Source: Nemertoderma westbladi (taxonomy: Eukaryota; Animalia; Xenacoelomorpha). Taken from it: a stretch of 55,573 bases of DNA. Position 1 is the stretch's first letter. Each line of letters begins with the position of its first letter. Below, in pieces: positions 8,401 through 44,974 of the stretch. Under the pieces are notes generated by a model. That model saw only the letters and a list, made by a program, of their open reading frames with translations. It was not told where the DNA came from and made no database searches. A program made the position numbers and the translations under genes. The stretch is taken from NCBI GenBank assembly GCA_032718475.1, contig JAUCBJ010004679.1, positions 1 to 55,573 of the forward strand, written 5' to 3'.

Positions 8401-8420
8401 TGGTGATTATTAGATAAATA

Positions 8421-12900: not shown

Positions 12901-13232
12901 ACAAACAAATATAACCCCAACACACCCAGTAGGCCAAACCCAAACAATAAGAACAGTAGGGAACTAGGTACGAACGAAGTGCGATACGCAGCGCACTGTA
13001 TAGGGATGGCTATAATCCAAACAACAAATGCCAATTGCATTCGAATGCACTTCATCAGACCATGAACTGCAGATATTGGCAAGCATTGCCCAAACAAGAT
13101 CAGGTAGAATATGCAAGGAAGAGTGGAATCTGTCATCGATGTGTGGCGGGCGGACACAATGCTGATCAATGCAAAGAAACACCAATTACGTTCGGTCAAG
13201 GCAAAGGGCAGACAATGGCGACAACACCGTAG
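9918..13232 (+). pseudogene. gag: BEL/Pao gag (frameshifted): Asn-rich and R/E-rich N-terminus, DUF1759-like core, Cys/His knuckles
   Basis: ORFs 10176-11060, 11081-11956, 11995-13065 (LPPVEPFKFD..EEYLQF..LKYLQVYTGGPAYDIV..AWRALAREYG) and 13035-13232 (CHRCVAGGHNADQC). Several frame breaks lie at poly-G runs. Confidence 0.85.
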
Positions 13233-16200
13233 GGGTGAAGAAAAGAGGAACGGTACTACTTGGGCTAGTACCAGTGAGGGTGATTGGAGAAGGCGATCGA
13301 TCAGTAACCACACTGATGCTAGTCGACAGTGGAGCAGCCTTCACATTGGTGGAGAATTGGGTGGCCGAAGAGATAGGACTAAAGACGAGGCCAAGTAGGA
13401 TGGCGGTAACAACCATCTCCAGCAAAGATGAGGTCCTGGAGATGAGGACGGGACGGTGCGAGATAGCAGCGATAGCACCGGGATGCGACTATGGGGCGAC
13501 CATCGACCCCATCCAGGTAATAGAATCGATCAACATCAAGCCAGGCGACCAACCAACATCGAGGTCGAACAATACAGATTCCTGGACAACATCGATTTCT
13601 CAATACCGGAGGTGGACATCAGGAAGGTATCCATCATAGTGGGAATGGATTGCCCAACGGCCCACGAGAGAATGCAAATGGTCTTCGGCGAAGACAGACA
13701 GCGTGACCCGATGGCAATTCTAACACCATTCGGGTGGACGATAAGCGGCCCAATTAAAACCAAGATTCCGTTTAGGATGTCGGAGACATCAGGGTCCATG
13801 TTCGCAGGAACTATGAGGGAGATGGAAGGAGCGGAGGAGCAGCTTAGGAGACTGCTGAGACAGGACTTTGAGGGATTAAAGGAGACCGGGGTCGGAACCT
13901 CGGTAGAGGATAAACAAGCGATACAAAGTGTGAAGGAGTCAATGAGATGCGACGAGGGGCGGTACACCATAGGCATGGTGTGGAAACAACCAAAATTACC
14001 GCTACCGGAGAACAAGGGAGTGGTACTCACGAGGCTTCGTAAACTGAAGCAAACGCTGAAACGGAGCCCCGAGAAGGATGAGTACATCCATAAGACGATA
14101 AAGAAGTATGTCGAGAAAGGATGGGCCGTGGAGTTGCCGGTCGACGAACTGAACACGGACAGGACCTACTACCTGCCTCTTCATGTGGCTTTAGATCCAA
14201 AGAAAGGTAAATTGCGGATGGTAGTTGACGCATCGGCTAAAACCTACGGCAAGTGCCTAAACGACTATCTGCTGGAGGGCCCCAATATCTATAACTCGGG
14301 AATCGAGGTCCTACTGAGATTTAGAAATGGGAGACACGCCTTCACCTGCGACATTGAAGGCATGTTCAACCAAGTCCGTGTGACGGAGGAGGATAGCGAC
14401 AGCCAGCGCTTCCTATGGTACAACGGCGATGAGGAACCGTCGAAAATACCGATGTACAAGATGGTGGTGCAGAACATGGGGGCCAAGTCGTCCTCATTCA
14501 CGACGACTGTGGCTGTAAGATATACAGTAGAGGGGAAAGAAGGGAAGTATAGTGCCAAAGCGGTCGATATGAATCGACGCGGCTTCTATGTAGACGACAG
14601 AATGGAGTCTGGGAACACGGTTAAAGAACTACTGGATACAGGGCGCGAGGTTCTCGACATCCTGAAGGGATCCGGGTTTAACCTGACCAAGTTCCAATCC
14701 AGCTCAGAGGAGTTTATGAAAGCCATAGAGGACAGACGGCCAGAGTCGACCATGGATAACCCCATAACAGCCAAGGGACAGGACATGGGGAGCAAGAGAG
14801 CGGAGTCTCAGCAGAAGGCACTGGGGATCGTGTGGAACCGGGAGACAGACGAGTTCAAGTACCAACTGAGCCAGGAGGGCGCGGACATCCACACAAAGAG
14901 GGGCTATGTATCGTACATAGCAAGGATATACAATCCCCTAGGCCTAGCATCCTCACTGTTAGTCATGGGGAAACAGATACTTAAGAAAGTTTATAAGTTA
15001 AAGGACGAGTGGGATACAGAAATCAGCAAGCAGTGGAGTAAGTGGACAGGGAGTTTAGAACAGATGGGGACGTACGCGTGTATTTCCCAGATGGGGACAT
15101 GACGGATCTGGACCTATACATGTTCTCCGATGCATCATTGGAAGCATATGGAGCGGCACTCTACGTTGTACAACGAAAGGGGGCTCATAAGCCCAGACTT
15201 GCATTCAGCAAAGCAAAGTGAACGCCGCCAGATTTAGCATCGGTCCCGAAACTCGAGTTGACAGCTGCAAGATTAGGAGTAAGGGCCACAGCCTACTTGA
15301 TCGACACTATTCCCAACATAGTGGAAACGCACTACTGGACGGACTCCATGGTAGTGCTTGGATGGCTGCACAATGAGAAGACGAGATACCCTATATTCGT
15401 CGCAAATAGGGTGGACGAAATAAGGGCGACGACAGGCTTGGAAAGGTGGCACTACTGCCCAACAGACGAGAACCCAGCAGACTTGTTATCGAGGGGCGTG
15501 GCACACCACACTTTCTCAAAGAAGGAAGTGTTGTGGCAGCACGGGCCACACTTCCTGAACGATAGGTCGGCCTGGCTACCAATGAAGAAGGTGGACCCGG
15601 GCTCAGAGGAAGTAGCACCAGGGGAAGAGGGAGAAGACTCAGAAGGTGAAGAGATATATAGTCAGATGGTGAGGGAAATCAAGGGGGTGCAACCAAAATT
15701 AGAACAGCCATGCGACAACCCGATGGATAGGCTTCTCAGCTACAGCTCAAGCTGGTACAAGACCAAGAAGTTGGTGGCGTACTGGAGGGCCTTCGGGGAT
15801 TTCCTCAAGGGAGTTGGCAAGGACGCCAAGAGGAAACCAAACATCGATCTGGAGGGAGCGGCTAAGGCCGTGATACGGTACGAACAGAGAAAGAACTACG
15901 GCGACGAAGTGGAACGCGTCAGCAAACAACAACACCTTCATTGGGACAGCGAGCTCATCACGCTGTCACCACAACTCAATGATGACGGGATTCTGGTGAT
16001 GAATTCCAGAGTGCTGAATAACAACAGCCTCATCATCCCACCAAAACCCATTATCATCCCAAACAGGTCGCCAATAGTCCACCAGATCATTTGGGACTCC
16101 CACAAGTCAATATTGCACAGAGGCACCAACCAGACCCTCAAGGAGATACGGAGGACCTTCTGGATCACGCAGCTAAGAAAGAAGGTGAAGGCGGTAGTGG

Positions 16201-17179
16201 GGCAGTGCCAGACCTGCCGACGGACGAGAAAGGAGCGGGCCGTACAGGAGATGGCGCCATTAGGGTGAGACAGTATGACCCGCCATTCACACACTGCGGT
16301 GTAGATATGTTCGGGCCGATAAAGATCAAGGTGATCGACACACGGAGAAACACTACGGCATCATCTTCGTATGTAACAACACGAGGGCGGTGGAATAGAA
16401 CTCGCCCAAGACGCTACCGCATCGGCATTCATCAATGCCCTAGAGAGATTCAGAGACCGCAAAGGTGGGACGATCGCAGTGATCTATTCCGACAATGGAA
16501 CCAACTTTGTGGGGGCAGAGAATGAGCTGGCGGAGGTCTTGGGCATCCTGGAAGGAGAAGAAGTCAGGGCAGCCATGAGGAGATGACAGGTGAAGTGGGA
16601 AAGGAGGACGCCATATGCTCCGCATACTTTAGGATGCGTCGAGAGACTCGTGGGTAGTTACAAGCGTCTGATGACGAAGTTGATTAACACCCACATGGTG
16701 ACAGAGGATATACTAAGGACGGTGCTAGCTAAGTGCAAGGGTATCATCAATAGCAGACCGCTATATCCAGAAAATAACGACCCAGAATCATTAGATATGC
16801 TAACACCCAGCCATTTTCTGATGGAAAGGCCGGCGACCAGATGTTAGAGATACACTCCCGACAGAGTTGGAAAGTCGCCAAGGCGATAAGCGCAGAGTAC
16901 TGGAGGAGGTGGGTCGAGGAATATCAACCCACATTACATAGGAGGAGCAAGTGGAGAAATACCACCAGAGAGTTAAAGAAAGGTGATTTAGTGATTGTCA
17001 CGGATGACACAATCATCAACAGTCAGTGGAGGCTAGCAAGAGTAGTAGACACTTACTCCGATGAGGACGGAAGAGTCCGATCGGTGGAAGTGCGGATAGG
17101 GGGTAAGATAGAAGCGAAAGATAGGAAGACCTACAGGAGGGCTGTAGGTAAATGTTGCCTGCTAGAAGGGGCACCATAG
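13169..17179 (+). pseudogene. pol: BEL/Pao protease-RT-RNase H-integrase, disrupted by frameshifts and stops
   Basis: LVDSGA protease; YLPLH..KLRMVVDASAK..CLNDYLLEGP..RFR..CDIEGMFNQV..FYVDD RT; FSDAS..ELTAA..WTDS..ENPADLLSRG RNase H; H..H..CQTC zinc domain and CGVDMFGP..SDNGTNF..ERLV integrase; YWRRWVEEY..KGDLV..WRLARV C-terminal domain. Confidence 0.93.
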
Positions 17180-17339
17180 AGTTTAGTCGTCCAAGTGTTG
17201 GACTGAGGGGGGTGGGATTGAGGGCGAGATGCCCTTCCCACAAAAAATATAAAAAATAATAAAAATAATAAAATAATAGAAAGAAAGTAAGAGAAAGGAA
17301 AGCAACAGTACATAGTATGTAGTAGTAAGTAAGTAGGCA

Positions 17340-17745
17340 GATAAGAGTTAGTAGTAAGAGGGTACATAGTACCGTTAGTAAGAGTTAGTAAGAGTTAGTA
17401 GTAAGAGGGTACGTAGTACCGTTAGTAAGAGTTAGTAGTAAGAGGGTACGTAGTACCGCTAGTAAGAGTTAGTAAGAGTCAGTAGTAAGAGGGTACGTAG
17501 TACCGTTAGTGGAGTTAGTAAGAGTTAGTAGTAAGAGGGTACGTAGTACCGTTAGTGGAGTTAGTAAGAGTTAGTAGTAAGAGGGTACGTAGTACCGTTA
17601 GTGGAGTTAGTTAGTAGTAAGAGGGTACGTAGTACCGTTAGAGGAGTCAGTTAGAGAGTAAGAGGGTACGTAGTACCATTAGTTAGAGAGTTAGTAAGAG
17701 TTAGGGAATTAGTGGAGTTAGAGAGTTAGTAGGGTTAGTAGTAAG
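17340..17745 (+). repeat. Purine-rich tandem array in the 3' region of A1
   Basis: About 8 units of 34-44 bp of (gttagtaaga)n-gttagtagtaagagggtacgtagtacc, each containing ggtac-gta-gtacc. Confidence 0.85.
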
Positions 17746-18250
17746 AAGTGAGAGGGGGGCATGTGGGTACAACAGGACAGACTGTGTAGGCCGCACGGGA
17801 CATACTACTGTACTGCACAGCCCGTAGAGTAGGTCAGAATGTTTGATACAGGGCCAGGAGGTTACCTGGTGCAGACTAGCACAGTAAGGAATTGCTAGTC
17901 TATCCTGTATACAAACCATAGGGGTTATTTAAATAAATAATCCATTATAAGTATTGATAGCACAGTAATAGAGTTAAAATCAATATTAAAATTAAAATTC
18001 AACAAATTATAGCAACAGTAGGCAGAAAATCCTATAAAAGAATAACATAATAAAAGTAACTGACAGATTTAGGGAATTTAGGGAAATTTAGCACTTTAAG
18101 GGGTAAATAGGCAAATGCAGCAACAAAACCTAGCGTTCTGAGGGAGATAGGCCATTATCGGACCACACAGACCATCCTAACTACATCACTCACCTATATT
18201 GAGCCTTGGCAAGGCACCACCTTATAGGTGAGCGATCGGGAGCGTTCGAA

Positions 18251-20665
18251 ATGGCGGAGAGACTTGTCAGAAAGAGAAATGCGGAAATGGGTGGAAAGGA
18301 GATACTAGTAGATTTCACCGAGAGGCATCCGGAGGAGAAGACGAGGGGATACTACGAGCGGTTAGAGAATGGTCACAAGGCGCGAGCGCTGCAGGACCAT
18401 TTCAGGGAGGTGCACGAGAGGCGGCTGGTTGGGACCTACGGGACGCCGTCGCTAGACAACGCGATCCTTGAGCATTTCCACTATGTGGTGAAGGGAGACA
18501 AGGCGAAGTTCGGGATACCAAAGTATCTGAGGGAACCACCGAAAAAGGACTGGAAGAGGTTTGTAGAGTCCGTCAGCAGGGGGGGATACATGGTCCTGGA
18601 CGACGAAGGGACCGTGGAAGACGACGAGGGTTCGAGGAGAGGGTCGGCGGGGTCGGCCAGAACCATACTTCTGCATTTGGCTGCGCCAAATGGGGACACA
18701 TTCCTGTTTGATCTGGGAACGTATGGGAAGAAGAGCGGGCCGAAGTTGAACCAGTTGCCAAGGGTGGTGCAGAACGTAGTAAGGGAGAAGTCGACGATGA
18801 AGGTGGGATCGGCGATCCGCGACGATGCGGAGAGGATCATCGGTCCGGAGACCCCCAACCTCCTGGACATGCAAACGGTCTACATGGCTATGACAGGGCC
18901 AGCAGGGTTGGGACTAGTAGAGAACACAGGACATTGTGGAGCGGTGGTGATGGGCCAGCTGATGGGGCTCGTCTGCCACAAGCCGATGGACTGGAGTAAA
19001 TTCAGGGAGGAGTACGGAGCGGACTTGGCAAACTCGCTGAAGTGGGGAGCGAGGCCAGGGAAACAGGAGGTGTATCAATTCTGGAGAGGAGCGATAAAGA
19101 TATATCAGAAGCGATATATCCTGTAGGAGGATTGGATGATGATAGGTTTACTAAACCTATTCATGGCCGTGGGAGGGAGGTGGATGGGGAGGTGGATACA
19201 CCATATCAGAGGTGGGAGAAGCTGGAGGCAGATAGACAAGAGGAGAAGCGATTGGAAGAAATCGCTAGACGAGAAAGGAGGGAGGCAGACGAAAGAGAGG
19301 CGGAAGCTAGGGTTCGAGGCCCAGGCCTTGGACGATTTGCAGTGGGCATCAGGGAGCTCAGGCGAGTCCCTGGGGCAAGAGTTGGGATGGACGGGAGGAT
19401 CGCCGAAACAGTCGACATCGGGATTGCAGGCGACGCCCATGCCAGCGGGCGCCGAGGGCGATTTCGCGAAGAAAAGACCAGGGGAACGGGAAGGATGGAA
19501 AGTCACGGGCGAGAGCCAAGGTGGGAAGGGATACAGTGGGTCTACCGGGATACCGGGTTTGGAACCACTCCCAGCGGAGGACGAGGATGACGACGAGTTC
19601 GGGGAGATGCCGCCCATCGGGAGAATCGGCCACTCAGACACGGACTGGGTTGGCGGGAGAGTGGTGACGGCCAGCGGGGCGAGGGCCTTCTGGGATAAAC
19701 CCGGCAAGTGGGCCTGGGTGCATGAGGAGCCGGCGATGGATTTCGCGGGGAGCACCATCAGGTTGGGTGAGCAACCGGGAACGGCACCACGGGTAGTGTT
19801 CGGAGAGACGATGCCGAGGTGAGACGAGGACATAGATATGGACAGAGACGTTAACGTCCAGAAGTTTGCTTACCAGCGGCTCCATAGACCGAGGAGGTCG
19901 CTTGGGGCAAAGGACGACTTGGGGTGGGATGCGTTGGTACTCAGCTGCGATTACTGCGGGAGGCTTACTCACCAGGAAAGGAGCTGCTTGTATCGATTCC
20001 AGAAGGGGACGAGCTGCCTCTACTGCCGCGAGTTGAGTCACAGGATGGGGGCGTGTCCACGGTTGCACAACCGGTGTTCTAAGTGCAACTTTCGGGGGCA
20101 CTATGGACGCCAGTGCGACTGGATGGATGACGAGGAGAAGTTTAAGATCTTCGAGGAGTGGGCCGATGTCGGCGTCATGACGCGGCAGCGAATGAAGGCC
20201 CTGGAATTCCGGTGGGGTTTCTTTAATATTAACCAGGAGGCCCACCTGGAAATCATTAAACTGAGACTTCCGTTTACTTATCAAGAAGTAGCAACGGCGG
20301 CATCGTATGCTGGAGTGATGAATACGCAGAGGTATTTAGATAAATGGGCGCCAGAGAACCGGGGAGAGTTCAGAGATTTCCTGGCGGAGCATGTGCCGCG
20401 GGCCATGAAGTTGATCTTATGGGATGCTACTAGGGGAAAGCAGCAGGGGCATTCGGAGGGGCCACCTGCGAAGCGATACCGGGAGCTAATAACACCAGCG
20501 CCCAAGGAATCGACCACGGGAATCAGTAGGGAAGTAACGGCAAGGATGAGGGACCTTAAGGGGGACAAGAGCAAGGGAGCGGTGTCAACCAGGAAGCGAC
20601 CGAGACAGAACGACAACAGAGGAAAGGAACTGAGATGGTTCCCAAAGACGGGAGGAGCAGAGTAG
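18251..20665 (+). pseudogene. Extra ORF of A1: DEDD (WRN/EXD/RNase D-like) 3'-5' exonuclease, charged linker and three CCHC zinc knuckles; interrupted by stops
   Basis: ORFs 18206-19126, 19136-19822 and 19838-20665 share one frame, broken by single stops. Exo I VLDDEG, LLHLAAPNGDTFLFDL, LPRVVQNVVREKSTM, Exo II KVGSAIRDD, LLDMQ, Exo III-like IKIYQKRYIL*ED. Three exact C-x2-C-x4-H-x4-C motifs at 19946-20116. Confidence 0.75.
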
Positions 20666-21413
20666 GACTCGGAGGGGAGATGTGGGGATGCCTGGAAGGC
20701 ACCACATGCGAAGTAATACGAACTTCTAAGTGCAAATTTAATAAAAGTGCAATTAGTATGTACGTATGTAGTAATCGATAGAATATAATCATATAATCAA
20801 TACAATCAATATAATCAAAGTAAGTACTATAGTCATGTAACCTTTTTCCAACTAGCTAGTGGGACTGGGGACCAACTGACTATGACAGGACGGGACACTA
20901 GTCGACTCACACTTCTTGAGTGCGACGGCACGAGAGGGGAGGGTGAGGCTCGTCAGGAGTGAGTGGAGCGGAACGAGTAGGGGTTGAGTACAGGAATGCA
21001 GGGGAGATAGTGAGAGGTGTGTTGATGCGTGTGGAGAGAAAACGGGTGCGATTCAAATGTGGGGGGGGGGGGGGGGGGCGAGGAGTAAGAGGCAGAGTGA
21101 GGGACAAAGAGGTCCGAAAGTAGAGTGGAGTTAGAGTGGAACTAGAGAAGTCAGAGTCAGTGCAGGGTAGAGTGGAGATATAAAATTGTGTGAGATGAGT
21201 CCACAATTGTCTCGAACCGAGACGCCAGATGTCTTGGTGCAACATAGGTTGGGGTTGCACCAAGAGGGGGTAGCAACATCATCCCCAGAGGGAGCAGCCT
21301 GGAAAGCCGACTCCAAGAAAAGAACTCCACCCCACACCCGATAGTAGTTCGGGTTCCAGCGGAATTGAAGCGCACTTATGGGTGATGCTATCTTCTCACC
21401 GGGAAGATAGCAT

Positions 21414-21422
21414 GGGGGGGAG
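21414..21422 (+). promoter_or_regulatory. Polypurine tract of A1
   Basis: gggggggag immediately before the LTR TGT; same arrangement in A2 (44352-44359). Confidence 0.8.
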
Positions 21423-22027
21423 TGTAAGCGGATTCAGTTCCGCTGCAACACCCTCATAAATGGGAAGTGGCACATTTTCAGTAATATGTCGAAGGTACGA
21501 GATTGGTAATAACCAATCTCGTATCACAACCAATGACCGGGGACGACACGAACCCCAAAGCCACACAAAGGGAGGTTAGAGGTCAAACCACCTCGGGAGG
21601 GAAAAATAACCAACAGGGGCCAACAGGGGGAGGGAAGCACTCCCAGAGAGGTGAGAGGCGTGAAGTAGGTTATCAGCCAATAGGAGCGGGGGAGAGCATC
21701 CACTGAACAAACGCCACAGTAGTGTAGAAATGATTACATATATATTGTCAATGCATAACATTACCGGTTCAGTTACTCAGTCGTCAGTTCAGTGCAGACC
21801 GGTGATATTCTATACCGTCGCCGTCACCAATACATATATTTACCGGTACAGCATCCATCATATATCAATGCTGCCTAACTGTAACTCTTACTGTGCTATC
21901 ACATATATATTCATTATCCGAGTATCAAGAAACATCAATTAACTCTTATTGTTTTACTGCAACGGCCTCGGCCTAGGTATCACCCAAAGGTAAACACGGT
22001 GACGCGTAATATACAAATCCGGTCACA
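21423..22027 (+). repeat. 3' LTR of A1 (605 bp)
   Basis: Starts tgtaagcgg, ends ggtcaca; colinear with the A2 LTR (agccaata, TATA-like, tcagtt, caacggcctcggcct, gggtaaacacggtga blocks). Confidence 0.85.
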
Positions 22028-31953: not shown

Positions 31954-31954
31954 T

Positions 31955-32470: not shown

Positions 32471-32740
32471 TAAGTTGGAAAGTTGGAAAGGGCGCCTTTA
32501 AGCAATATTGGGGAGTACGAGGTTGATTACCAATCAACCTCGTATCACCCCCAATAAATGGGGACGACAAACCCCAAAGGGCCTCACACAATGGAGGTCA
32601 TAGGTTAAGCCTCCGGGGAGAAGGAAAGTAACATCAGCGGGGGGGGGGGGGGGGGGGGGGGAAACTATCCCACAGAGTAAAAGGCGTGAAGTGGGAAATT
32701 AGCCAATAAGGAACAAGGAAGGTATCGCTAGATGAAGGCC

Positions 32741-33275
32741 TAGTACTAGGATCGGCATGCTGCATTGCAGCTGCATTTTTAAGAATGCTGTGCCGGCTTG
32801 TCAACAAAATTGCACCGCCACAATTCCCTATCACCCATGACATTTGCTAGATCATCCGCATCTTTAAGGCCAGTGTCCTTTAAGATGCGTCTCAAGAAAG
32901 TCATGGGCTGTCCACCATGCTTATTCACTCCATGAGGCTGCCAAAGTACAAGATTATGCACTGGCTGGTCCTCACGGCGAAAGCAATGTCCTGCAAAGCG
33001 GAGGCGATTTTGTTCTAGTGTCAAGCTTGGGGGAACCAATGAGACACCTCCAATGTTATATAGTGTCTGGTTGGAGATGTGTGCATTGTACTTGACACAA
33101 TGTACCCGGCGTAGCATTCTTGTGAATGTGCCATCCAGAGATTTGGTGTCCTCAGCAGTTAGAGCCCAGCATGGACTCCCGTAGAGGAGTACTGAAACTA
33201 CTGCTGCTCTAAATAATCGGACCTTAAGTTTCCGATTAATTCTCGGTGACTTCCAAATCCTGGAAAGCCTATTCA
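32741..33275 (-). mobile_element. RTE-clade LINE 3' fragment (family RTE-B) inserted in the A2 5' LTR
   Basis: 11-bp TSD agatgaaggcc (32730-32740 / 33276-33286), empty site in the 3' LTR; ORF KVRLFRAAVVSVLLYGS..RLRFAGHCFR. Confidence 0.93.
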
Positions 33276-33309
33276 AGATGAAGGCCACAGTACCATAAGG
33301 GTGTTTAGA

Positions 33310-33345
33310 TATATTATGCTATGTACCATACCGGTCAGTTAGTTT
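33310..33345 (+). promoter_or_regulatory. Putative LTR core promoter (TATA-like plus TCAGTT initiator)
   Basis: tatatta at 33310-33316 and TCAGTT at 33335-33340 at appropriate spacing; similar arrangement in the A1 LTR (~21740-21775). Confidence 0.45.
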
Positions 33346-33610
33346 ACCCAGTCACTCAGTGAACACCGGTGACATCTTTGCACCGTCATCGTCACCCAAT
33401 ACTGCTATGCCGGTACATATCTTGTCAATCTACTATTGCTGCTTAACTGTAACTTACTGTGTCATATATATATATATCATTATCTGAATACCAAGGAACA
33501 TCAATCAATTCTTATTGTTTCACTACAACGGCCTCGGCCTCGGCACCCAAGGGTAAACACAGTGACGCGTAGCAAACCAAATCCGGTCGGGATCCCTCGA
33601 TCCCGTCACA

Positions 33611-33620
33611 GTGCAAAGAT
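33611..33620 (+). promoter_or_regulatory. Non-tRNA primer-binding position, complementary to the element's own LTR
   Basis: gtgcaaagat directly follows the LTR end (..gtcaca) and is the reverse complement of atctttgcac at 33374-33383; no TGG nearby. Confidence 0.6.
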
Positions 33621-33988
33621 CTAAGGGAACCACTATCAAAACTGTGACTGCCAAGGAAGTTAAAGATGAGCCAAGAAGGAGAGACGACACCGCCGCAGAC
33701 CCCGGACGACAACCTAACGATCCGCGAGGCCGCGGCGAGACGGTATCGACCCACGAGGCCGGATTCGCCGACGAGAGACAGTCCGGCGGCCCAGGCGGAG
33801 GGCGGCCGTCTACCACAGTGAGGGACGAGCGAGTCGAGAGAAGGGAGAGACGAGTCGACGCACGACGGCGGTCGACGTACCGATGTCGCTGGCCAGCCAC
33901 AGGCCGAGGGCGACGGATGGCCCTCCGGAACGGCGACGGTGGGGCCGCCGGTACGACAGGGGAGTAGAGAGTTATTGCAGATAGATGT

Positions 33989-35940
33989 ATGGGCCCCAAT
34001 ATATTAACATCAACCCCAGTACCAAACATACCGGTGGGGGGGGGGGGGGGGGGGGGGGGACAGCGTGACATTCCCCCATTACAATATCAACAATATACTC
34101 AAACAGGAATAAGAACATCGAACCCCCTGGACGAGAACAGGTCGTGCGACACGGAAATATGGAGGGGGCCGTTACCCCCAATGATATATACAACTCAAAT
34201 AAAATCAACAGATAGGACGGGCGGACTGCACCAAACAGGAGAATCTGTACAGCATCCATCGAACCCATTGGAAGCACAGGTAATGGGAATGGCGACACTA
34301 ATCGATGCACTGAAGACCAGGATCGAGTTACCACCAATCGAGCCATTTAAATTCGACGGAAGTAGGCCGGAAGAATACCTGCAATTTCGGCGCATGTACA
34401 GCAATGAGATATTAAGTAAGAACCTGACGCAGGCGGAGTGCCTAAAATATCTACAGGTGTATACAGGAGGCCCAGCATACGACATCGTGAGGCAGTACCA
34501 GGGCATCGAGGGTGGCTTCACGACAGCATGGCGGGCACTAGACAGGGAGTACGGGCACCCGGCCAAGATCATCCGGCAGACCCTGAGAGGTATAACATTG
34601 GGTGGCCTACAAGACAACCCTGTTAGCATAAAGACCTTTGCGAACAAGGTCGAGAAGGCGTTAATCATGTTAAAGACGCTAGACGCGCCATACAAACTCA
34701 ACGCATCTAATAACATCACCACGATAGCGCAGGCACTGCCGATCTGGCTGCGGAGCAAGTGGAGGAAGATCACCTTCTCCATTCGGGAGAAGAAAGGTGC
34801 GGAGCCAGGGCTAGAGGAAATGTCGAGCTTCCTAAACTACGAAGCCGAGTTGATAACACACCCAGTCTATAGTGAGGATAGTTTGGGGAAGGCGCCAACA
34901 ATACCGAATACAACAGGCCTAAACCCGAACACAATCCTGCAGATCCATTCCCGAGAGTAAGACAGTCGCTACGACACGCGGCCACACAGGGGGCTACAAG
35001 CCCACAGTTAGCTGTGATTAGGGCCACACCATGGCAGGGACAGAAAGAAAATAACACCACAAATAAACACAATCCCAACATACCCAGTAGGCCGAGTCTA
35101 GATAACCAAAACACTAAATCGGTAGATATAAACCTACGCGCGATACGTGAAGGACTATACAGGGAACGCTATAACCCAGGATTCGAATGTCAACTGCATA
35201 GGGACGGAACCCATAAGACCATGAGTTGTAAGCACTGGCAAGCGTTGCCCAAACAAGATCGTGTAGCCTACACAGACGCAAACGGACTATGTCATCGATG
35301 TGTGGTAGAAGGACACAGATCCGGAGAGTGTAGAGAAACAGCAGTTAGAGAGTCCGAGACTGGAGGCCAAACAATGGCTACAAGCACGACAGTGGCAAGA
35401 AAGAAGAGAAAAGTACTACTCGGGGTAGTACCAGTGAAGATATCAGGAGAGGGCAGTCGATCAGTAACGACATTAATGCTGGTCGACAGCGGAGCAGCCT
35501 TCACGCTGGTGGAGAACTGGGTGGCCGAAGAGATAGGGCTAAAGACGAGGCCGAATAGAATGGCGGTAACTACCGTCTCAAGTAAGGATGAGGTCCTGGA
35601 GATGAGGACGGGGCGGTGCAGGATATCAGCGATTGCACCGGGATGCGACTATGGGGCGACCATCGACCCCATCCAGGTGATAGAATCGATAAATATCAAC
35701 GCCAGGCGACCAACCAACATTGAGGTCGAACAATATAGATTCCTGGACGGTATCGATTTCTCAATACCAGAGGTGGACGTTAGGAAGGTATCCATTATAG
35801 TAGGAATGGACTGCCCGACGGCCCACGAGAGAATAAGACGGTCTTCGGCGAAGACAGACAGCGGGATCCGACGGCAATCCTCACGCCGTTCGGATGGACG
35901 CTTAGCGGCCCAGTTAAAACCAAGATTCCATCCAGAGTGA
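33989..35940 (+). pseudogene. gag: gag core and protease of A2 (frameshifted)
   Basis: ORFs 33989-34960 and 35014-35940 are near-identical to A1 in the DUF1759-like core and LVDSGA protease; knuckles CQLHRDGTHKTMSC and CHRCVVEGHRSGEC. Confidence 0.88.
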
Positions 35941-37047
35941 CGGAGACATCAGGGTGCATGTTACCAGGCACCGTAGACGCAGAGGACGCAGAGGAGAGAC
36001 CAGGAGACGGTAGATAAGCCAGACGGGGAAGTAACAGTAAGAGAGTGGGCGGAGGAGAATGGATTTGACGCGGAAGACTTAGAGGCAATGGGATGGAACA
36101 AGGGTCCCAGCAAGTATCGGTATGGGGATGGAGAGGAGCGGACGGCGAGATGTCCGGAGGACAACAGTGTCCGGTGGAGTGTCAGGAGGACAAAGTCGGA
36201 GGAGTGTCCGGAGGAGTGTCCAGAGGAGTGTCCGGAAGAGACGCCGGTCCGGTTGAGAGGCATACCGACAAGGGGAGGTCGAGTAAGGAAGACAGGATGG
36301 AAAGGGATAGGACTACTATTGTACGTTCTGTTTTGTCTGTTCTTTCACTTTCTTTTCATTCTGCCACCGGGAGACAACAAGGTGGGAGGTGGCATTTTGA
36401 TGCCAAGAGACGAGGAAGTTAAGAAGGCGGCGGAGAGACCCGATTTTGGGGTGGCAGAAGAGGGAGAACCAATTCCTGGTGAGTTGGAATTGGCGGAGAG
36501 AGTGTGGCGAAGAATAAGAGGACGTATAGGGGGGCAGTGGGAGAATGCCTCCTGGAAAGAATCGATGGAAGATCAAGGGGGACATTAGAGTTTAGTCGTC
36601 CAATATTTTGGACTGAGGGGGGTGGGAATGAGGGCGAGACGCCCTTCCCACACAAATAATTATTTAATTAAAATAAATAATAAATAATTAAATAATAAAT
36701 AAGTAGAAGTTAGATAGTAAGTAGAAATATTTAGAAATGTAATAAAGTTATTACAGTAGATTTATACTATATAATACTGTATACTTTTTTGGTGAAGGTT
36801 TACTACAGGTACAGTGCTGATAGATGATTTATTGTTTGAGAGACAAGCCAGCAAGCAGATTATTATATTTAGTATTGTCTGACAGCTGACCCCTTTTCTT
36901 GTTGCTTTAGCTGACTGCCGGATGCAGTCAGCATTATGTTCGACTGAAGGCTGACTGTTGGATACAGTCAGCACTGATATATTTGGTGTGTGTATATTCC
37001 GCACATTTTGGTGCCTGGACCCGGATCCTGTTGAATGAAGGAATATA

Positions 37048-37890
37048 AAAATCCCGAATAGATTTCAAAATCGCAGTTATGACGTTTAGAGCTATACAAG
37101 GCACTGCCCCTTCTTACTTGTCGGACCTTATTAAACCCTGCAGTAATAACCGAACAGGCCGAAATATGAGATCTGTTTCATCAAACTGTCTACAGGTTTA
37201 TCCAGCTCGAACAACGTTTGCTAGACGATCATTTAGCTATGCAGCACCGATGGTTTGGAATGCACTGACTTGTGACCTGAGAGATCCAAGTATTACACTT
37301 GAGATGTTTAAAGCTAGACTGAAAACACACTTTTTTAATCTGTATTTTAACTCATAATTGTTGCAAAGTTTTTAATTGGGAAATTATTTATAAAAATTAT
37401 AATTTTACACATAATTATTATTAAAGGGATAACAATACAGAACTATGATGCTATTTATGAATTATATGATTTTTATCGATAACATTTATTTAGAACATTT
37501 TTAGAACACGATTGCATTTTATGCATTTTATATTCGATATATTTTTAATTTACGGCCAAACACTGTACAGTATTACAACTTTGCTATTTATGGAATCGGT
37601 TATCTTTGCAAATTTGTAATGGAAGAACTTATATTTTTGAAATTAGTACTGTTTGTTTTTTAAATAATCGTAAATTATTTTGCGATAACTTGATGTAATA
37701 ATTTTAAATCCCTTGTATTTTTAATGTGTGTTGTAAATATAAGTTTGTAATAATTAATTAGTATGTAATAGTTAATTAGTATTTGTATTTAAATAATGTG
37801 CAGAACTATAAATTTGATTACGGTGCCCTCTGCATGACTAATGTTAGAAGGGGGCACGTTAATAAGCCATTATTATTATTATTATTATAT
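37048..37890 (+). mobile_element. L2/CR1-group LINE 3' fragment inside the leader of BEL family B
   Basis: RIDFKIAVMTFRAIQGTAPSYLSDL..RSFSYAAPMVWNAL..FKARLKTHFF C-terminus; 3' stem gtgccctct..agggggcac followed by an (TTA)n tail. Confidence 0.85.
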
Positions 37891-38253
37891 AATCAGTGTT
37901 TGGGAATACTGTTTGGCAGTTTGGTGAATACTGGAATACCTACTGCAGTACTGAACTGGAGTAATTAATCAGATAGGCTCAAACTGCAAACTGTTATATT
38001 TGGATACAGTACAGCAGTAAACTGCGTATTCGACGGACGTACCTGTATCTACGGTCAGACGGTTAGGCCTAACGAGCCTATTGGCCTACCTATATTCATA
38101 TTGCTGTATTAGTCAGTACGGTATATAACGGTACTGGTACTGCATTTCGGCATTCGGAAATAAACTGGAACTGTGACACAACGCAAATTACGAAGTCAAT
38201 CCGGCCAGAAATATTTGTAATTTAATCTACCTAACCTAGGCCTTGTAGATAGA

Positions 38254-41200
38254 ATGGCTGAACCGCTGGGTAAGTTAAGGAAACGGAGAGCAGGTCATAA
38301 AGCAACCGCTACTCGTTTAATGGGAGATCTCCATGGCGAAATGTACTCAGATTTCGCCAACCGTACATTACACGATGATGTCAATGTTGAAACTATAGAG
38401 GATTTATCCGAGGGATTGCGAAATCAGAGGGCGAAAATAGCTGAGTTGACTGAGGAGATTCAACATCTTGTAGAAGATGAAGATCAGTTAGTTACCGAAA
38501 TCAATTCGTCTGCTAAGGATGACATGCAGATAGGTTCCTTATTGCATCGAATAGATAAGTTATTAGGTCTAAGTAATTCTGTAAGTCAGCATGGCCAAAT
38601 CCACCCTTCTGATCACATCGGTTTTAATCCGGAAAATACTGGGTTAGATAGAACCCAGATAGGAAATACGAGGCCTATGGGATTAACCCCTCAGAAGCTT
38701 CCAAACCTTAAACTTCCAAAATTTAGTGGCGATCCGATAGAATGGCCCAATTTCTGGGATCAATTTGAGGATGCAATACATAAGAGAACTGATCTAGCTA
38801 TTACATCTGATACAGGGGATGTTTGTTTGGCAACTTCGGGTGGATCTACATTACTTCCTACCGCAATCTGTCCTATAAGATTCCTAAATGATGGGAAGGA
38901 GGATGATTACTCTGTTCGTACAATTCTCGATCAAGCTGCACAACGTACTTTTATACTCCGTCGAATTGTCAAGGCATTAGGATTGAAGACAATTAATAAG
39001 GTTTCATCTTCTATAGACGGATTTAATAAGGAAGGACCAAGGAAGGTTTATGATGAAGTTCGTTTCCGAATTTCAACTTCGGATGGTTTAATTGAGACTT
39101 GGGCGTTAGTTGTAGATAAGTTGCCTCTTAGATTATCTTCCCCGGGTCGTACCAAGATGGTCTCTCAACTACAGCTGCGTGGATTTAAGTTAGCAGATCC
39201 TCGTACCGGAGATGATTTATCTGACATTGGGTTGTTGATAGGAGTCGACCAGTACTTTAACTTCGTTTATGGGGAATGTATTCAAGGTGGTATTTATCGG
39301 CTTCCTTCTAATCTTGGTGATGTCATTACTGGTACATTGCCTTTATGTGATTCCCAATCAAACTCAATTCAATCAAATGTTATTACGGCTCTCCTTATTG
39401 GTTGTGTTGAAGAGTCGGATAATCTTGATGATGCCCTCGAACGACTTTGGAGATTAGATACAATCGGTATCTCATCTGATGACACCAACCCTATTGATGA
39501 AGCTGTTATGAAGGAATTTGAAGAAAACACTAAGTATGTTGATGGAAGATATGTTGTTCGTCTACCTTGGAAACCGGATTTTCCATGTCTACCATCCAAT
39601 TACGGATTATCGATAAAGCGACTTCAGTCGACATTGACGAAGTTGTCAAAGAATCCTTTGTTATTGGAATGTTATAATAGTATTAAATTCTTCAACAGTT
39701 AGAACGTGGATTTATAGAACTAGCACCCCCCTATATTGCTACGGGTTCTAAAATACACTACCTAGCCCACCATGGAGTTGAAAAACAATCGATAACAACT
39801 CCATTACGAATCATATTCGATTGTTCGGCACGGGCTGGTCGTGGGTTACCGAGTCTCAACGATTGTTTGTATTCGGGACCGAGTTTAATCTCACAAGATC
39901 TCATTGAAATGCTACTGCGTTTTCGTCTGAACCTGTATTGCGCATTGGCGGATATCGAGAAGGCTTACTTACAGGTGATATTAGATGAAAACGATCGTGA
40001 CGTCACACGCTTCATGTGGCCAGAGGATCCAACCAATCCTCACAGTCCTTGGGTCACATATCGATTTCGAGTAGTCCTTTTTGGTGCTACTTGTTCCCAA
40101 TTCCTTCTCAATGCTACTGTGCGTCATCATGTCCGCAAACTAAACCCTCCATGCGCTCAACGTATTCTCAATGGTTTGTACGTAGACAATTTACAAGCTA
40201 ATGATAATTCTGAGCATTGTTTAATTAATTTTTATAACGAAAGTCGCGGTATTTTATCCGCTGGTGGGTTTCCTTTAAGGGAGTGGGTTACTAATTCACC
40301 AGAATTAGCTGAGTTGATAAAAGTAAACCATGACGGACCTAAAGTAACTAATAATGAACAAAAGGTTTTGGGATTATGTTGGAACATGTCTGATGATGCC
40401 ATAGGATTCCAAGATAGGAGGAACATGACATCATCAGCGGTTATTTTAACAAAACATAAGGTTGTTAGTTTGGCATCAAGGGTTTTTGATCCATTGGGAT
40501 TCATAAATCCAGTGACAATACGATCTCGTTTATTAATACGGGATATATGGGCTCTCGGTATTAAATGGGACGCCCCACTCCCAGACAACATTGTAAAAGA
40601 GTGGCATAACATTGTTTCTGATCTTATTTTGTGCTTTAGTTTTTGTCTGCCTAGGCAATTATGTGTAACTCCTGAAGCATCTATACAGTATACACGCTTT
40701 TTGTGATGCATCAGGAAAAGCTTTCGGTGCTGTTATTTATATTGTTTTAGATAATATTTCTAAAGTTGTGATTTCCAAGTGTAAACTTGCTCCAATCAAG
40801 GGTGGTAAAACCACGCCATCATTACCGCAGCTAGAATTGACAGCTGCTGCTATTGGATCAAAACTTCTAAAGTTTGTAACAAATGTTTATAAAGTTGAAA
40901 CTGATAATAGTAATAAATTATTTTTGTGGACTGATAGTAAAATAACATTGGCCTGGATTAATTCTGACAAAATACAAAAACCGTATATCCAACGCCGTGT
41001 TCTAGAAATAAGAGAAAACTTACCCAATGGTACATTTCTTTATGTACCAACAGACGACAATCCAGCTGATTGTTTATCTCGTGGTATTTCGGCCAAGAAA
41101 TTTCTTAAATTTAATTTATGGATTTCTGGTCCAACCTGGCTCACATCTGATAATTGGCCAAATCAAAATGATATTTCTGTTGACCAAATGGAGCCAGGTG

Positions 41201-43022
41201 AACAGCCAATTGTATCTATTGCAACAATGTCTGTTAATGAGACTGTTATTTGTACTCCCCCTGTTATATGTCCAATCGATATTAAACGTTTTGGGAATTT
41301 CAATAAGTTGATAACTGTAACAGCTTTAGTATTTCGTTTTATTAGAAATTTAAAGTGTGCAATTGTTGATAAATCTCGTACTCGTACTATAGTTGATATT
41401 GTGCCAAGTAATGTGCATTTTAATATTTTTCCATTGTTACGAGTGAGTGAAGTGCGCGATGCTGAAATTTGGTTAGTCCAACAGGCACAGCGTGAATCTT
41501 ATCCGGAGGTTTGGGATTACTTGATTACTTCTAAAGGTCGTATGCCAACTATTGTGCGTCAATTACATCTTACTATGATGGATGGTATGATTCGTAGTGT
41601 GGGAAGAATCGACAATGCCAATCTGCCATGGGAAACTAAATACCTCTTGTTTCTACCATCCCACCATTGGTTAACACATTTAATCATTAAGTACACGCAT
41701 GAACATTTAGTTAAGCACTCGGGTATTGCAGATACAGTAGTTTTCTTAAGACAAAGGTGGTGGATTCCAGCTATCCGTCAACGAGTTCGATCTCTGTGCA
41801 GACAGTGTACAACATGTCGTAAAATTCAAGGACCCCATTATCAAGTACCCCCTCCTCCCCCATTACCTAACATTCGAGTACAGGAATGTCATCCATTTAA
41901 GTGTAGTGGTGTAGATTACACCGGCAGTTTATTAGTGAAAGGCAACGACGACAAATTCAAGGTGTATATAGCATTATTTACTTGTGCTGCGAGTCGTGCG
42001 GTCCATTTAGAAATAGTGCGTGATAATAGTACTGATGCTTTCCTACTGGCTCTGCGACAATTTGTTGGGCGGCGAGGGTGTCCTTCGAGATTGTTGAGTG
42101 ATAATTCGTCGACATTCACCTCAGCAGATGGTTGTTTAAGGCAGGCCAAAGAAGACCCTAGTGTCAGTAAGTTCTTATTGTCACATCGAATTACATGGGA
42201 TTTTATCCCCCCAGCAGCACCATGGTTTGGCGGGATATGGGAACGCCTGGTGCGAATGATGAAGACTAGTTTGAAGAAGGTGTTAGGTTGCGCGTTAATA
42301 TCTCTAGAAGAGTTACAAACGCTTATTGTTGAAGTTGAGTGTATAATGAATGACAGACCTCTTACTATGTTTCGGGAGATAATAGTGATCCACAGCCACT
42401 AACTCCATCAATGTTAATATCAGGTCACCGCATTAATACATTGTATAATCCCAATAGCCTCGATAGTGATGTGTGGCGTGATCCCGATTATTGTCCAACT
42501 GTATCTAGAGATAGTCTAACTCGTAGTCATCTTCGTTTGCTAAAGTTATTGAGTGATCTGTGGACCCGGTGGTCCAAAGAATATTTAACAACATTGCGGG
42601 AGCACCATCGTTGGGATTCTCGTGACCCTAGTAATGTTGTGAGTGTTGGAGACGTAGTTCTCATCCATGATAATGTCCTACCGCGTGGGCGTTGGAATCT
42701 AAGCAAGGTGATAGACTTACATCCGGGTAATGATGGGTGGGTTCGATTCGTAACCTTACGTACTGCTACGGGAATATACAAGAGACCAATTAAGAAACTC
42801 TATCCAATAGAATTAGCGTCTCCCGCCTCCGACGATCCTATTGGTAACAACCCTGTGGTTTCTGCACGCCCCCAAGCGGTGGTTAAGTTCGACAATCCTT
42901 CAGAATGCCAGCCCTCACAGCGTAAGGCGGCTCAATCGGCTAGAGAGAGAGTTTCATCTTATTATGACGATATTAGTGAGTCTTCAAAGTCTGAGTGCAG
43001 TTCTGGAAGTGAAAGTTTTTAG
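38254..43022 (+). pseudogene. pol: gag-pol of BEL family B, frameshifted, with an in-frame gag deletion
   Basis: KLPNLKLPKFSGDPIEWPNFWDQF runs abruptly into the protease region (LDQAAQRTFI) with no knuckles; RT ADIEKAYLQV..FGATCSQFLL..LYVDN; RNase H FCDAS..ELTAA..WTDS..NPADCLSRG; integrase GVDYTG..SDNS..WFGGIWERLV; WTRWSKEYL..VGDVVLI. Confidence 0.93.
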
Positions 43023-43544
43023 TAACAAATGACGGATTTGTAGTTAGTTAATATGTATTGTTCAGTAATTGTTATTTACGAAAGATGTTTTTAATAATTT
43101 TAGTGTATATTATTTGCAACTGTACCCAATTGATTATTTTTGGGCGGGAGAATGTAATAAAGTTATTACAGTAGATTTATACTATAATACTGTATACTTT
43201 TTTGGTGAAGGTTTACTACCGGTACAGTGCTGATAGATGATTTATTGTTTGAGAGACAAGCCAGCAAGCAGATTATTATATTTAGTATTGTCTGACAGCT
43301 GACCCCTTTTCTTGTTGCTTTAGCTGACTGCCGGATGCAGTCAGCATTATGTTCGACTGAAGGCTGACTGTTGGATACAGTCAGCACTGATATATTTGGT
43401 GTGTGTATATTCCGCACAAGAAGTATGAAAGTTAGTAGATAGTTAGATAGTAGAAGATAGTAAGAAGATAGTAAGTAGTAGTTAGAAGATAATAGAAAGT
43501 TAGGTTAGAAGTCGGCGGGTAAGGGAGTGTGGTATATTAACATG

Positions 43545-43745: not shown

Positions 43746-44359
43746 GTACACTTAGTAGAGAGTTAGAGAGTTCTAGTTAGAGCTAGTAGAGTAGAGTTAG
43801 TAGAGAGTTAGGAGTTAGTTAGAGCTAATAGAGTTAGAGTTAGAGTCAGTAGAGTTAGAGTTAGTAGAGTAAGTAGTAAGTAAGATTTAGATAAGAGAGT
43901 AAGTATAAGTTAAATTTAGATAAGGTAGATAGCACGATAGCACAGTACGGTAGCACAAGTATAGGAGCACAGAGATAGTGAGAGGAGCTGTTGGCGAGAG
44001 AGAAGTTAGATTGCGAGTCAGGTGTGGGGAAAGAGTAAGAGTGGGGAGAGAGTAAGAGCGGAGTTAGAGTGGAGTTGGAGGAGAGTTGGAGTGTGAAGTT
44101 AGAGTTTAAGAGAAATATTTAAAAATTGAGTGAGAGTCCACAATTGTCTCAAACCGAGATGCCAGATGTCTTGGTGCAACATAGGTTGTGGTTGCGCCAA
44201 GAGAGGGTAGCGACATCATACCCAGCGGGAGCGGCCTGGAAAGCCGACTCCGAGTAAGATAACTCCACCCCACACCCGATAGTAGATCGAGTTCCAGCGG
44301 AATTGAAGCGCACTTGAGGTTGATGCTATCGTCTCACCGGGAAGATAGCATGGGGGGAG

Positions 44360-44974
44360 TGAGAGCGGATTCAATTCCGCTCACCAACCCCCATAAAGTT
44401 GGAAAGGGCGCCTTTAAGCAATATTGGGGAGTACGAGGTTGATTGCCAATCAACCTCGTATCACCCCCAATAAACGGGGACGACAAACCTCAAAGGGCCT
44501 CACACAATGGAGGTCAGAGGTTAAGCCTCCGGGGAGAAGGAAAGTAACAGCAGCGGGGGGGGGGGGGGGGGGGGAACTCTCCCACAGAGTAAAAGGCGTG
44601 AAGTGGGAAATTAGCCAATAAGGAACAAGGAAGGTATCGCTAGATGAAGGCCACAGTACCATAAGGGTGTTTAGATATATTATGCTGTGTACCATACCGG
44701 TCAGTTAGTTTACGCAGTCACTCAGTGAACACTGGTGACATCTTTGCACCGTCATCGTCACCCAATACTGCTATACCGGTACATATCTTGTCAATCTACT
44801 ATTGCTGCCTAACTGTAACTTACTGTGTCATATATATATATATATCATTATCTGAATACCAAGGAACATCAATCAATACTGTTTCACTACAACGGCCTCG
44901 GCCTCGGCACCCAAGGGTAAACACGGTGATGCGTAGCAAACCAAATCCAGTCGGGATCCCTCGATCCCGTCACA
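44360..44974 (+). repeat. 3' LTR of A2 (615 bp)
   Basis: Starts tgagagcgg after the PPT, ends cccgtcaca; matches 32479-33610 once the RTE insert is removed. Confidence 0.92.

What the first reader, a model, noticed from the sequence alone, without database searches (positions are those of the whole stretch)
33335..33620. Candidate self-priming (tRNA-independent) reverse transcription in a BEL/Pao element
Seen: the 10 nt right after the 5' LTR (gtgcaaagat, 33611-33620) lack the TGG of a tRNA PBS (family B and the Gypsy element in this window both have one). They are the exact reverse complement of atctttgcac at 33374-33383 in the same LTR (also 44740-44749), shortly downstream of the TATA/TCAGTT start region. 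Pairing puts the 3' end of that segment against the first base after the LTR, the geometry needed to prime minus-strand DNA; chance of such a match is roughly 600/4^10. The next 9 nt (cgtcatcgt) can pair with U5 acagtgacg (33559-33567, 8/9; acggtgatg in the 3' LTR, 9/9 with G-U), and this helix is kept in the diverged A1 LTR (cgtcgccgt 21816-21824 / acggtgacg 21996-22004). A cgggatc/gatcccg hairpin closes U5. Established: self-priming via a 5'-end/PBS duplex cut by RNase H is known for Tf1 and related Gypsy-group elements, whereas BEL/Pao elements are described as tRNA-primed. Inference: independent evolution of self-priming in a BEL lineage; speculatively, the family's cargo exonuclease could trim the primer 3' end.
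Basis: partly seen in the sequence, partly recalled or inferred. Interest (0 to 1): 0.88.

Follow-up and report, generated by a model that had tools for sequence, protein, structure and literature searches.

The report
Likely self-priming BEL/Pao retrotransposon
A jumping gene of a family described as tRNA-primed lacks the usual tRNA landing site and carries there ten letters that exactly pair with a stretch near the predicted start of its own RNA, so it likely starts copying itself with a piece that would be cut from its own transcript.

Summary
Confirmed: the 10 nt after the 5' LTR (33611-33620) have no TGG and are the exact reverse complement of 33374-33383 (chance 0.0003-0.004). The element is a deleted BEL/Pao copy (gag and protease, no RT). 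Corrections: the LTR is about 615 bp, not 332. A TATA-initiator pair kept in the sister copy A1 puts the likely start near 33337, so the primer would be nt +38 to +47, not the 5' end as in Tf1. U5 holds a near copy of the PBS that pairs with the same segment; A1 keeps that helix with 2 compensatory changes, which suggests a two-state switch. Host contigs show many subfamilies sharing the LTR end, often followed by GT, then differing, with a conserved leader motif. The decisive pair (A1-type primer with A1-type PBS) was not seen. Folding supports the primer duplex only for short windows. The cargo exonuclease got no tool support. Self-priming in some form about 0.6. It is known in Tf1/sushi and predicted in plant Copia; I found no print report for BEL/Pao. 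This scan noted it before on other DNA (8 notes, at least 3 genomes).

The parts
32479..33610 (+). 5' LTR of element A2; first 35 bp missing, U3 interrupted by a LINE piece
   Evidence: 32479-32740 matches 44395-44652 and 33276-33610 matches 44642-44974; the missing start is found nowhere upstream
32741..33275 (.). LINE-like insertion in U3 with an 11-bp target duplication (32730-32740 / 33276-33286)
   Evidence: matches 49395-49826 and 50498-50618
33310..33340 (+). TATA-like box (33310) and TCAGTT initiator (33335); predicted start near 33337
   Evidence: spacing 25 nt in A2 and 28 nt in A1, CCAAT box 61-64 nt upstream of TATA in both; start site inferred, not mapped
33349..33355 (+). 5' strand of a predicted outer helix (P0) with the leader motif 33644-33650
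   Evidence: 7 of 7 Watson-Crick pairs; probability 0.92 for the fold ending at 33655, 0.17 or less otherwise at 37 C
33374..33383 (+). candidate self-primer (10 nt)
   Evidence: exact reverse complement of 33611-33620; duplex -12.7 kcal/mol
33384..33392 (+). 5' strand of helix P2 with U5 33559-33567; the predicted cut lies between 33383 and 33384
   Evidence: cut site inferred from Tf1
33559..33576 (+). U5 partner: P2 3' strand plus a near copy of the PBS (33569-33576) that pairs with the primer
   Evidence: 16-pair helix, 46 of 48 cells paired in 3 copies, 2 pairs changed on both sides in A1
33588..33605 (+). U5 terminal hairpin
   Evidence: probability 0.98-1.00 in all folds; highest summed contig depth of the LTR
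33611..33620 (+). PBS position; no TGG; complementary to the primer
33641..33650 (+). conserved leader motif; pairs with either the LTR end (33605-33612, 8 of 8) or 33349-33355 (7 of 7)
   Evidence: 11 of 18 listed contig pieces differ across the PBS yet align through to 33652-33659
33968..35940 (+). gag (DUF1759) and aspartyl protease, in broken frames; RT, RNase H, integrase and cargo deleted
   Evidence: Pfam; alignment to A1 jumps from 35971 to 36575
36738..43418 (+). nested BEL/Pao element of family B with a TGG PBS (control)
   Evidence: RT 27% identical to A1
44350..44974 (+). polypurine tract (44350-44359) and 3' LTR (44360-44974), primer copy at 44740-44749
   Evidence: 9 substitutions in 328 aligned columns against 33279-33610
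9918..22027 (+). sister element A1: 5' end lost; gag, pol, cargo ORFs 18203-20665, 3' LTR 21423-22027 with a different primer segment at 21805-21815

Best explanation
This BEL/Pao element has no tRNA-type PBS and its first 10 post-LTR bases pair exactly with 33374-33383 of its own LTR, so it likely primes minus-strand DNA with that segment, which would lie at +38 to +47 of the RNA and would be freed by a cut between 33383 and 33384. Predicted working: the leader has two near-equal folds. In the resting fold the primer is held by a PBS-like copy in U5 and the first PBS bases are held by the leader motif at 33641-33648. In the priming fold the primer moves onto the PBS, the RNA's 5' arm (33349-33355) takes the leader motif, and U5 loops out with its hairpin. 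An RNase H-type cut, as shown for Tf1, would then give the 3' OH. Shown: the sequences, the complementarity, conservation of the primer-U5 helix in A1, PBS variability in host contigs. Inferred: start site, switch, cut, priming. RT would come in trans because this copy has lost it.
For: 10 of 10 match at offset 0, chance 0.0003-0.004. No TGG; controls with TGG have 3-5 nt self-matches. The primer's last two bases AC and the next four are the same in A1 and A2 while the rest of the primer differs. In host contigs much of the depth carries on through GT and then disperses: run X1 20,033 at 33607-09, 12,986 at 33610-12, 1,439 at 33613-15, 323 at 33619-21; run X3 12,320, 7,459, 980, 229. None of the 6 listed loose ends opening at 33610-33617 gives TGG in the first five bases (13 rows shown, 18 not shown). 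Primer-U5 helix: 46 of 48 cells paired, 2 double changes; Monte Carlo p 0.001-0.04 depending on transition bias. Resting fold -68.9 and priming fold -69.1 to -74.5 kcal/mol for 33337-33655. Tf1 uses an 11-nt self-primer, an RNase H cut and a three-duplex structure (PMC7175516, PMC10085805, passages). The match meets the criterion used to call self-priming in plant elements, 10 bp or more within 0-5 bp of the LTR (PMC6317226, passages).
Against: No linked primer/PBS pair from a second subfamily was seen; the A1 primer does not pair with the A2 PBS (-1.2 kcal/mol), so the test is open. The primer duplex has probability 0.91-0.99 only when the fold ends at or before 33670; it is 0.47 at 33685 and 0.24 or less for all six longer windows from 33337 at 37 C. 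The covariation found is primer with U5, not primer with PBS; it rests on 3 copies (2 lineages), the helix was derived from those copies, and 62 of 500 shuffles reach 2 double changes. The primer is not at the predicted 5' end, unlike Tf1. Contig depth is no copy number. A single, deleted copy. Many LTR elements are scanned, so a 1-in-300 to 1-in-3,000 match will occur somewhere by chance.
Confidence: 0.45

Rival explanations
1. Self-priming by the RNA's 3' end: R ends at the primer (44749), and the 3' end of the genomic RNA anneals to the PBS after loss of its tail. This would explain why the primer is internal, and would give a 3'-5' exonuclease a job.
For: The 3' LTR carries the same 10 nt. 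The primer ends near a CA. The idea was noted for another genome (e1-7468529, unchecked).
Against: None of 12 poly(A)-signal hexamers occurs in 33279-33610, and none lies 10-30 nt upstream of the primer in any of the 3 copies. U5 would be about 225 nt. The cargo ORF has no detectable exonuclease match and is absent from this copy.
Confidence: 0.13
2. A host tRNA fragment or other small RNA primes at this site, and the LTR match is incidental or a decoy.
For: Belpaoviridae are described as tRNA-primed (PMC8742986, whole text). Half-tRNA priming occurs in Copia lineages (PMC6317226, passages). The last seven bases of the A2 primer read like an anticodon loop with UGC (recalled tRNA anatomy, not tested).
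Against: It does not explain a 10 of 10 LTR match. The post-LTR sequence varies among host subfamilies from the third base on. The A1 segment lacks the anticodon-loop pattern. No host tRNA set was available (0 tRNAs in the window).
Confidence: 0.15
3. The pairing is real but structural (packaging, dimerisation or translation switch), or the PBS-position sequence is a duplicate of the U5 segment; priming is by something else.
For: U5 33569-33576 is a near copy of the PBS and covaries with the primer in A1. The leader motif can sequester the first PBS bases (8 of 8 pairs; probability up to 0.8 at 37 C in long folds from 33337), which could by itself explain the conserved GT.
Against: The PBS pairs 10 of 10 while the U5 copy pairs 7 with a bulge. 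The match begins exactly at the first base after the LTR, where a primer 3' end must sit. No other primer site is evident.
Confidence: 0.15
4. Chance match in a decayed copy.
For: One copy, internally deleted; element C also lacks TGG; empirical rate 195 of 54,863.
Against: The match falls on a segment already in a conserved helix, next to the initiator. Near-identical PBS-spanning contigs occur in two samples (records 2 and 15), so the PBS is not private to this copy.
Confidence: 0.08
5. Classic Tf1 layout: transcription starts at 33374, so the primer is the capped 5' end.
For: 33373-33374 is pyrimidine-A in both A2 and A1; the match is exactly 10 nt long and begins there.
Against: The conserved TATA box is about 64 nt upstream of 33374 but 27-30 nt upstream of the TCAGTT initiator in both lineages.
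Confidence: 0.04

Closest known systems
Tf1/Tf2/Tj1 and the Tf1/sushi group (Ty3/gypsy chromoviruses): self-primed reverse transcription
   Same: No tRNA site; 10-11 nt right after the LTR complementary to the element's own LTR; neighbouring duplexes and a U5 stem-loop (PMC7175516, PMC4600332, PMC10085805; passages).
   Different: BEL/Pao polyprotein, no chromodomain hit. The primer is predicted to be internal (+38 to +47), not the first 11 nt. A PBS-like copy in U5 and an outer helix with the RNA's 5' arm are not part of the Tf1 'pretzel' as described in those passages.
Plant Copia TAR lineage (Houba, Osr-1) and Tcn1: predicted self-priming
   Same: Called from the same kind of sequence evidence (10 bp or more, 0-5 bp after the LTR; PMC6317226, passages). 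It indicates self-priming may have arisen more than once.
   Different: Different superfamilies and plant hosts.
Belpaoviridae / Semotivirus (BEL/Pao)
   Same: DUF1759 gag, aspartyl protease, RT, Peptidase_A17, integrase in PR-RT-RH-IN order, TG...CA LTRs of about 0.6 kb, purine tract.
   Different: The ICTV profile gives an 18-nt PBS for tRNA-Arg or tRNA-Gly (PMC8742986, whole text); this element has none. A1 also carries unplaced cargo ORFs.
Fungal GalEa Copia elements with a Conserved Hairpin Site
   Same: No classical PBS; hairpin near the LTR end (PMC5445492, passages).
   Different: The authors found no complementary LTR sequence there; here a 10 of 10 match exists.

Membership tests
BEL/Pao (Belpaoviridae) | BEL/Pao Gag-Pol domains in the order Gag, PR, RT, RH, IN | tested here: met
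   DUF1759 and protease in A2; DUF1759, protease, weak RVT_1, Peptidase_A17, Integrase_H2C2 in A1. All named RT relatives carry BEL/Pao domains. A2 and A1 are 84% identical over 2 kb.
BEL/Pao (Belpaoviridae) | LTRs of 0.2-1.2 kb with a purine tract before the 3' LTR | tested here: met
   615-bp LTR after a purine tract in A2 and A1
BEL/Pao (Belpaoviridae) | 18-nt PBS complementary to a host tRNA 3' end (as described by ICTV) | tested here: not met
   No TGG in 33611-33640. This is the departure reported; family membership rests on the polyprotein.
BEL/Pao (Belpaoviridae) | Target-site duplication around the element | not testable with these tools
   The start of the 5' LTR is missing from the window
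BEL/Pao (Belpaoviridae) | Placement in a named branch (Pao, Sinbad, Dan, Flow, BEL, Tas, Suzu) | tested here: inconclusive
   Quick tree of 50 rows: A1 is a long branch (2.34) in a 44-row group (SH-aLRT 96) with coral, brittle star, limpet and loach elements, apart from family B; no labelled reference elements were on hand
Tf1/sushi group (membership) | Ty3/gypsy chromovirus polyprotein | tested here: not met
   BEL/Pao domains, no chromodomain hit
Tf1-type self-priming (works like) | PBS complementary to own LTR, 10 nt or more, adjacent to the LTR end | tested here: met
Tf1-type self-priming (works like) | Primer is the 5' end of the transcript | tested here: inconclusive
   TATA-initiator spacing points to +38 to +47; no start-site data
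Tf1-type self-priming (works like) | Three-duplex structure around the primer/PBS helix | tested here: inconclusive
   Flanking helices can be drawn and one is conserved, but their partners differ from the pretzel description and the fold depends on window length
Tf1-type self-priming (works like) | Primer and PBS covary between families | tested here: inconclusive
   Primer differs in A1 and the PBS varies in contigs, but no linked pair was seen
Tf1-type self-priming (works like) | RNase H cut frees the primer, which is found on minus strong-stop DNA | not testable with these tools
   needs RNA or particle data
DEDD 3'-5' exonuclease (A1 cargo) | Exonuclease fold and DEDD motifs | tested here: inconclusive
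   No family, sequence or fold match; models had mean pLDDT 38-40. A D-x-E motif after a predicted strand resembles WRN/EXD-type domains by eye (recalled).

The most novel reading that the evidence does not exclude
A whole BEL/Pao lineage, with many subfamilies in this host, has replaced tRNA priming by an internal self-primer controlled by an RNA switch: a PBS decoy in U5 holds the primer until the leader refolds, and primer, decoy and PBS drift together between subfamilies, giving each its own priming code.
Probability: 0.3. Interest if true: 0.85.

Novelty: new variant of a known kind. Interest (0 to 1): 0.6.

Why it matters
BEL/Pao replication is called poorly understood and assumed to be tRNA-primed (PMC8742986). 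A self-primed lineage would make BEL/Pao a third LTR superfamily with tRNA-independent initiation, after Tf1/sushi (shown) and plant Copia TAR (predicted). It would also explain BEL/Pao elements that PBS-based annotation misses. An internal primer with a U5 decoy would be a layout not described for Tf1. The claim is cheap to test in any assembly of the host, because it predicts the 10 bases after each subfamily's LTR.

Tried and rejected
No whole genome is held. The U5-hairpin pattern gave 24 loci in metagenome contigs, none like the window beyond the pattern by blastn or tblastx, 0 in viral contigs (27) and 5 in bacterial genomes, judged chance from their record titles and not aligned (84). 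Protein-led locus searches found no relative. No RNA holder was listed among the 6 runs. The two loose-end rows at 33617 would fit the A1 prediction only if the aligned letters before them were A1-type, which the output does not show. Splice-made primer (e1-7811049, e1-7882409): not needed, since the match is contiguous and no AG precedes 33374. An apparent compensatory pair between the two A2 LTRs (33367/33585) was set aside because both changes are CpG transitions. An alternative R/U5 helix (33403-33410 with 33567-33574) dominates short folds of the 5' LTR, but it rests on G33409, a variant that contigs and the 3' LTR mostly lack. The constraints for the resting fold and the U5-leader stem were mis-registered by one base; one search has the corrected values. 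Cargo ORF: no relatives (the 2 hits were repeat proteins), no fold match at Z 5 or more, ESM Atlas not answered. Primary Tf1 papers were not held. Two searches used 'BEL Pao' with a space, which misses 'BEL/Pao', and are weak.

Full report
OBSERVATION. The ten bases after the 5' LTR (33611-33620, GTGCAAAGAT) are the exact reverse complement of 33374-33383, a 10-mer found only there and at 44740. The LTR ends in CA at 33610 and 44974. There is no TGG in the next 30 bases. An exact match of 10 at offset 0 occurred in 8 of 20,000 shuffles of the 332-bp part and 9 of 30,000 shuffles of the full LTR; 195 of 54,863 window 10-mers have such a match in their upstream 614 nt. Family B (TGG at 37009) and the Gypsy fragment (TGG at 29519) self-match for 3-5 nt only. 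So does a third element at 23964-28871 that also lacks TGG.

ANATOMY. The element (A2) is a BEL/Pao copy with DUF1759 gag and protease in broken frames. It has lost RT, RNase H, integrase and cargo, and family B is nested in it. Its sister A1 (9918-22027; 84% identical over 2 kb) keeps pol and cargo but has lost its 5' end. It starts at 44360 after a purine tract (A1: 21423), 615 bp in all. The 5' LTR runs from 32479, lacks its first 35 bp and holds a LINE piece at 32741-33275 with an 11-bp duplication, so no target duplication can be checked. CCAAT, TATA-like and TCAGTT motifs keep their spacing in A2 and A1. That points to a start near 33337 and puts the primer at +38 to +47; this is inferred. 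The RT's best relatives are 39% identical or less in the tree alignment. In a quick tree of 50 rows, chosen from 166 hits, A1 is a long branch inside a group of coral, brittle star, limpet and loach elements, apart from family B (27% identity to family B).

RNA STRUCTURE. Folding 33337 to 33630-33670 gives the primer/PBS duplex with probability 0.91-0.99. It drops to 0.47 at 33685 and to 0.24 or less for the six longer windows (37 C). Of 48 cells, 46 are paired and two pairs inside the primer part change on both sides in A1. Random placement of the same number of changes keeps this much pairing with p 0.001-0.04, but 62 of 500 column shuffles reach two double changes, and the helix was derived from these three copies. 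A leader motif at 33641-33650 pairs either with the LTR end plus the first two PBS bases (8 of 8) or with 33349-33355 (7 of 7). The two arrangements have close energies for 33337-33655: -68.9 for primer-on-U5, -69.1 for primer-on-PBS with the second helix forced, -74.5 with the rest free.

OTHER COPIES. No related locus was found in any collection. Six runs of the host species label were listed and four were laid, all as contigs. On 33580-33662, 165 contigs of X1, 127 of X3 and 2 of X5 were laid. Summed depth in X1 falls from 20,033 (33607-09) to 12,986 (33610-12), 1,439 (33613-15) and 323 (33619-21); X3 shows the same shape. This fits many subfamilies sharing the LTR end, a large share continuing with GT and diverging from the third base. 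Depth is no copy number, so this is a pattern, not a count. Of 18 listed pieces (276 not shown), 11 differ by 5-8 letters and 3-8 gaps yet align through to 33652-33659, so the PBS region varies while the leader motif is kept; 2 span the PBS region to 33655 with 0-1 differences, one in each sample. None of the 6 listed loose ends opening at 33610-33617 gives TGG in its first five bases. The primer's final AC is shared by A1 and A2 while the rest differs, which matches the constant GT; the leader stem could explain the GT as well. The A1-type PBS, the decisive test, was not seen.

MECHANISM. Best reading (0.45): the primer is held by the U5 copy in a resting fold, moves to the PBS in a priming fold, and is freed by an RNase H-type cut between 33383 and 33384, with RT supplied by an intact relative. 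The cut is borrowed from Tf1, where the first 11 bases pair with the PBS and RNase H cuts between bases 11 and 12 (PMC7175516, passages) within a three-duplex structure (PMC10085805, passages). Rivals: priming by the RNA's 3' end at the same 10 nt (0.13; no poly(A) hexamer upstream in 3 of 3 copies); start at 33374 as in Tf1 (0.04); tRNA fragment (0.15; no host tRNA set); purely structural pairing (0.15); chance (0.08). Self-priming in any form is about 0.6. The cargo exonuclease idea has no tool support (models pLDDT 38-40) and A2 lacks the cargo.

COMPARISON AND NOVELTY. It is a BEL/Pao element by its proteins, and not a Tf1/sushi member. It works like Tf1 in the one feature that sequence can show, and seems to differ in primer position and the U5 copy. 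The ICTV profile (PMC8742986, whole text) describes an 18-nt tRNA-Arg or tRNA-Gly PBS and calls replication poorly understood. Self-priming is shown for Tf1, proposed for Tj1 (PMC4600332, passages) and predicted for plant Tcn1 and Copia TAR (PMC6317226, passages). The BEL/Pao survey PMC3118150 has no occurrence of primer, PBS or tRNA in its main text. Passages of PMC13524379, PMC5443660, PMC5445492 and PMC3601003 showed no BEL/Pao self-priming. Ten literature searches (listings) showed no paper reporting it, but subscription journals, Repbase and GyDB entries are not covered, and no supplements were read. The title of a paper stating that the Tf1 self-primer is not removed was seen only in a reference list. 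This scan has noted BEL/Pao self-priming in at least three other genomes (unchecked notes, not support); none matched this sequence or genome.

VERDICT. Observation confirmed; interpretation partly supported; new variant of a known kind; interest 0.6. One assembly-level covariation check would settle most of the doubt.

Noticed in passing
window 23964-28871: A third LTR element (269-bp LTRs 99% identical, 4-bp target duplication, DUF7047 and RNase H-like hits) has neither TGG nor a self-match above 5 nt after its 5' LTR; its primer is unexplained.
   Followed up: partly
window 18203-20665: A1 carries about 2.4 kb of cargo frames after the integrase: a 307-aa ORF with no relatives among 1.84 billion representatives, and a downstream frame with several Cys/His knuckles (zf-CCHC_4, E 0.022).
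   Followed up: partly
window 33567-33614 and 33663-33960: Summed contig depth is 8,000-19,000 at the LTR end and up to 290,000 in the leader/gag start, against a few hundred for the rest of the LTR in run X1: a large family of diverged subfamilies shares these parts; joints going back from about 33957 to 33878 suggest a tandem unit of about 110 bp.
   Followed up: partly
window 33279-33610 and 44645-44974: None of 12 poly(A)-signal hexamers lies downstream of the initiator in either A2 LTR; how the RNA 3' end is made is unexplained.
   Followed up: partly
window 22008-22027: The A1 3' LTR lacks the 20-bp U5 hairpin, lost between two short near-repeats.
   Followed up: partly
window 44130-44590 and 21190-21650: The 3' UTR and U3 are strongly conserved between A1 and A2 and are rich in short inverted repeats, suggesting further RNA structure.
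   Followed up: no
window 45183-46502 (-): 439-aa frame that reads like the C-terminal half of a non-LTR retrotransposon with a zinc knuckle and restriction-like endonuclease (recalled resemblance; no Pfam hit), right after the A2 3' LTR.
   Followed up: no
window 4632-5396 (+): 254-aa frame with hydrophobic stretches, resembling part of a seven-transmembrane receptor by eye; no Pfam hit.
   Followed up: no
window 5461-5990, 7241-8328, 31556-31973: Tandem arrays of 56, 52 and 49 bp; the last lies inside the Gypsy pol fragment.
   Followed up: no
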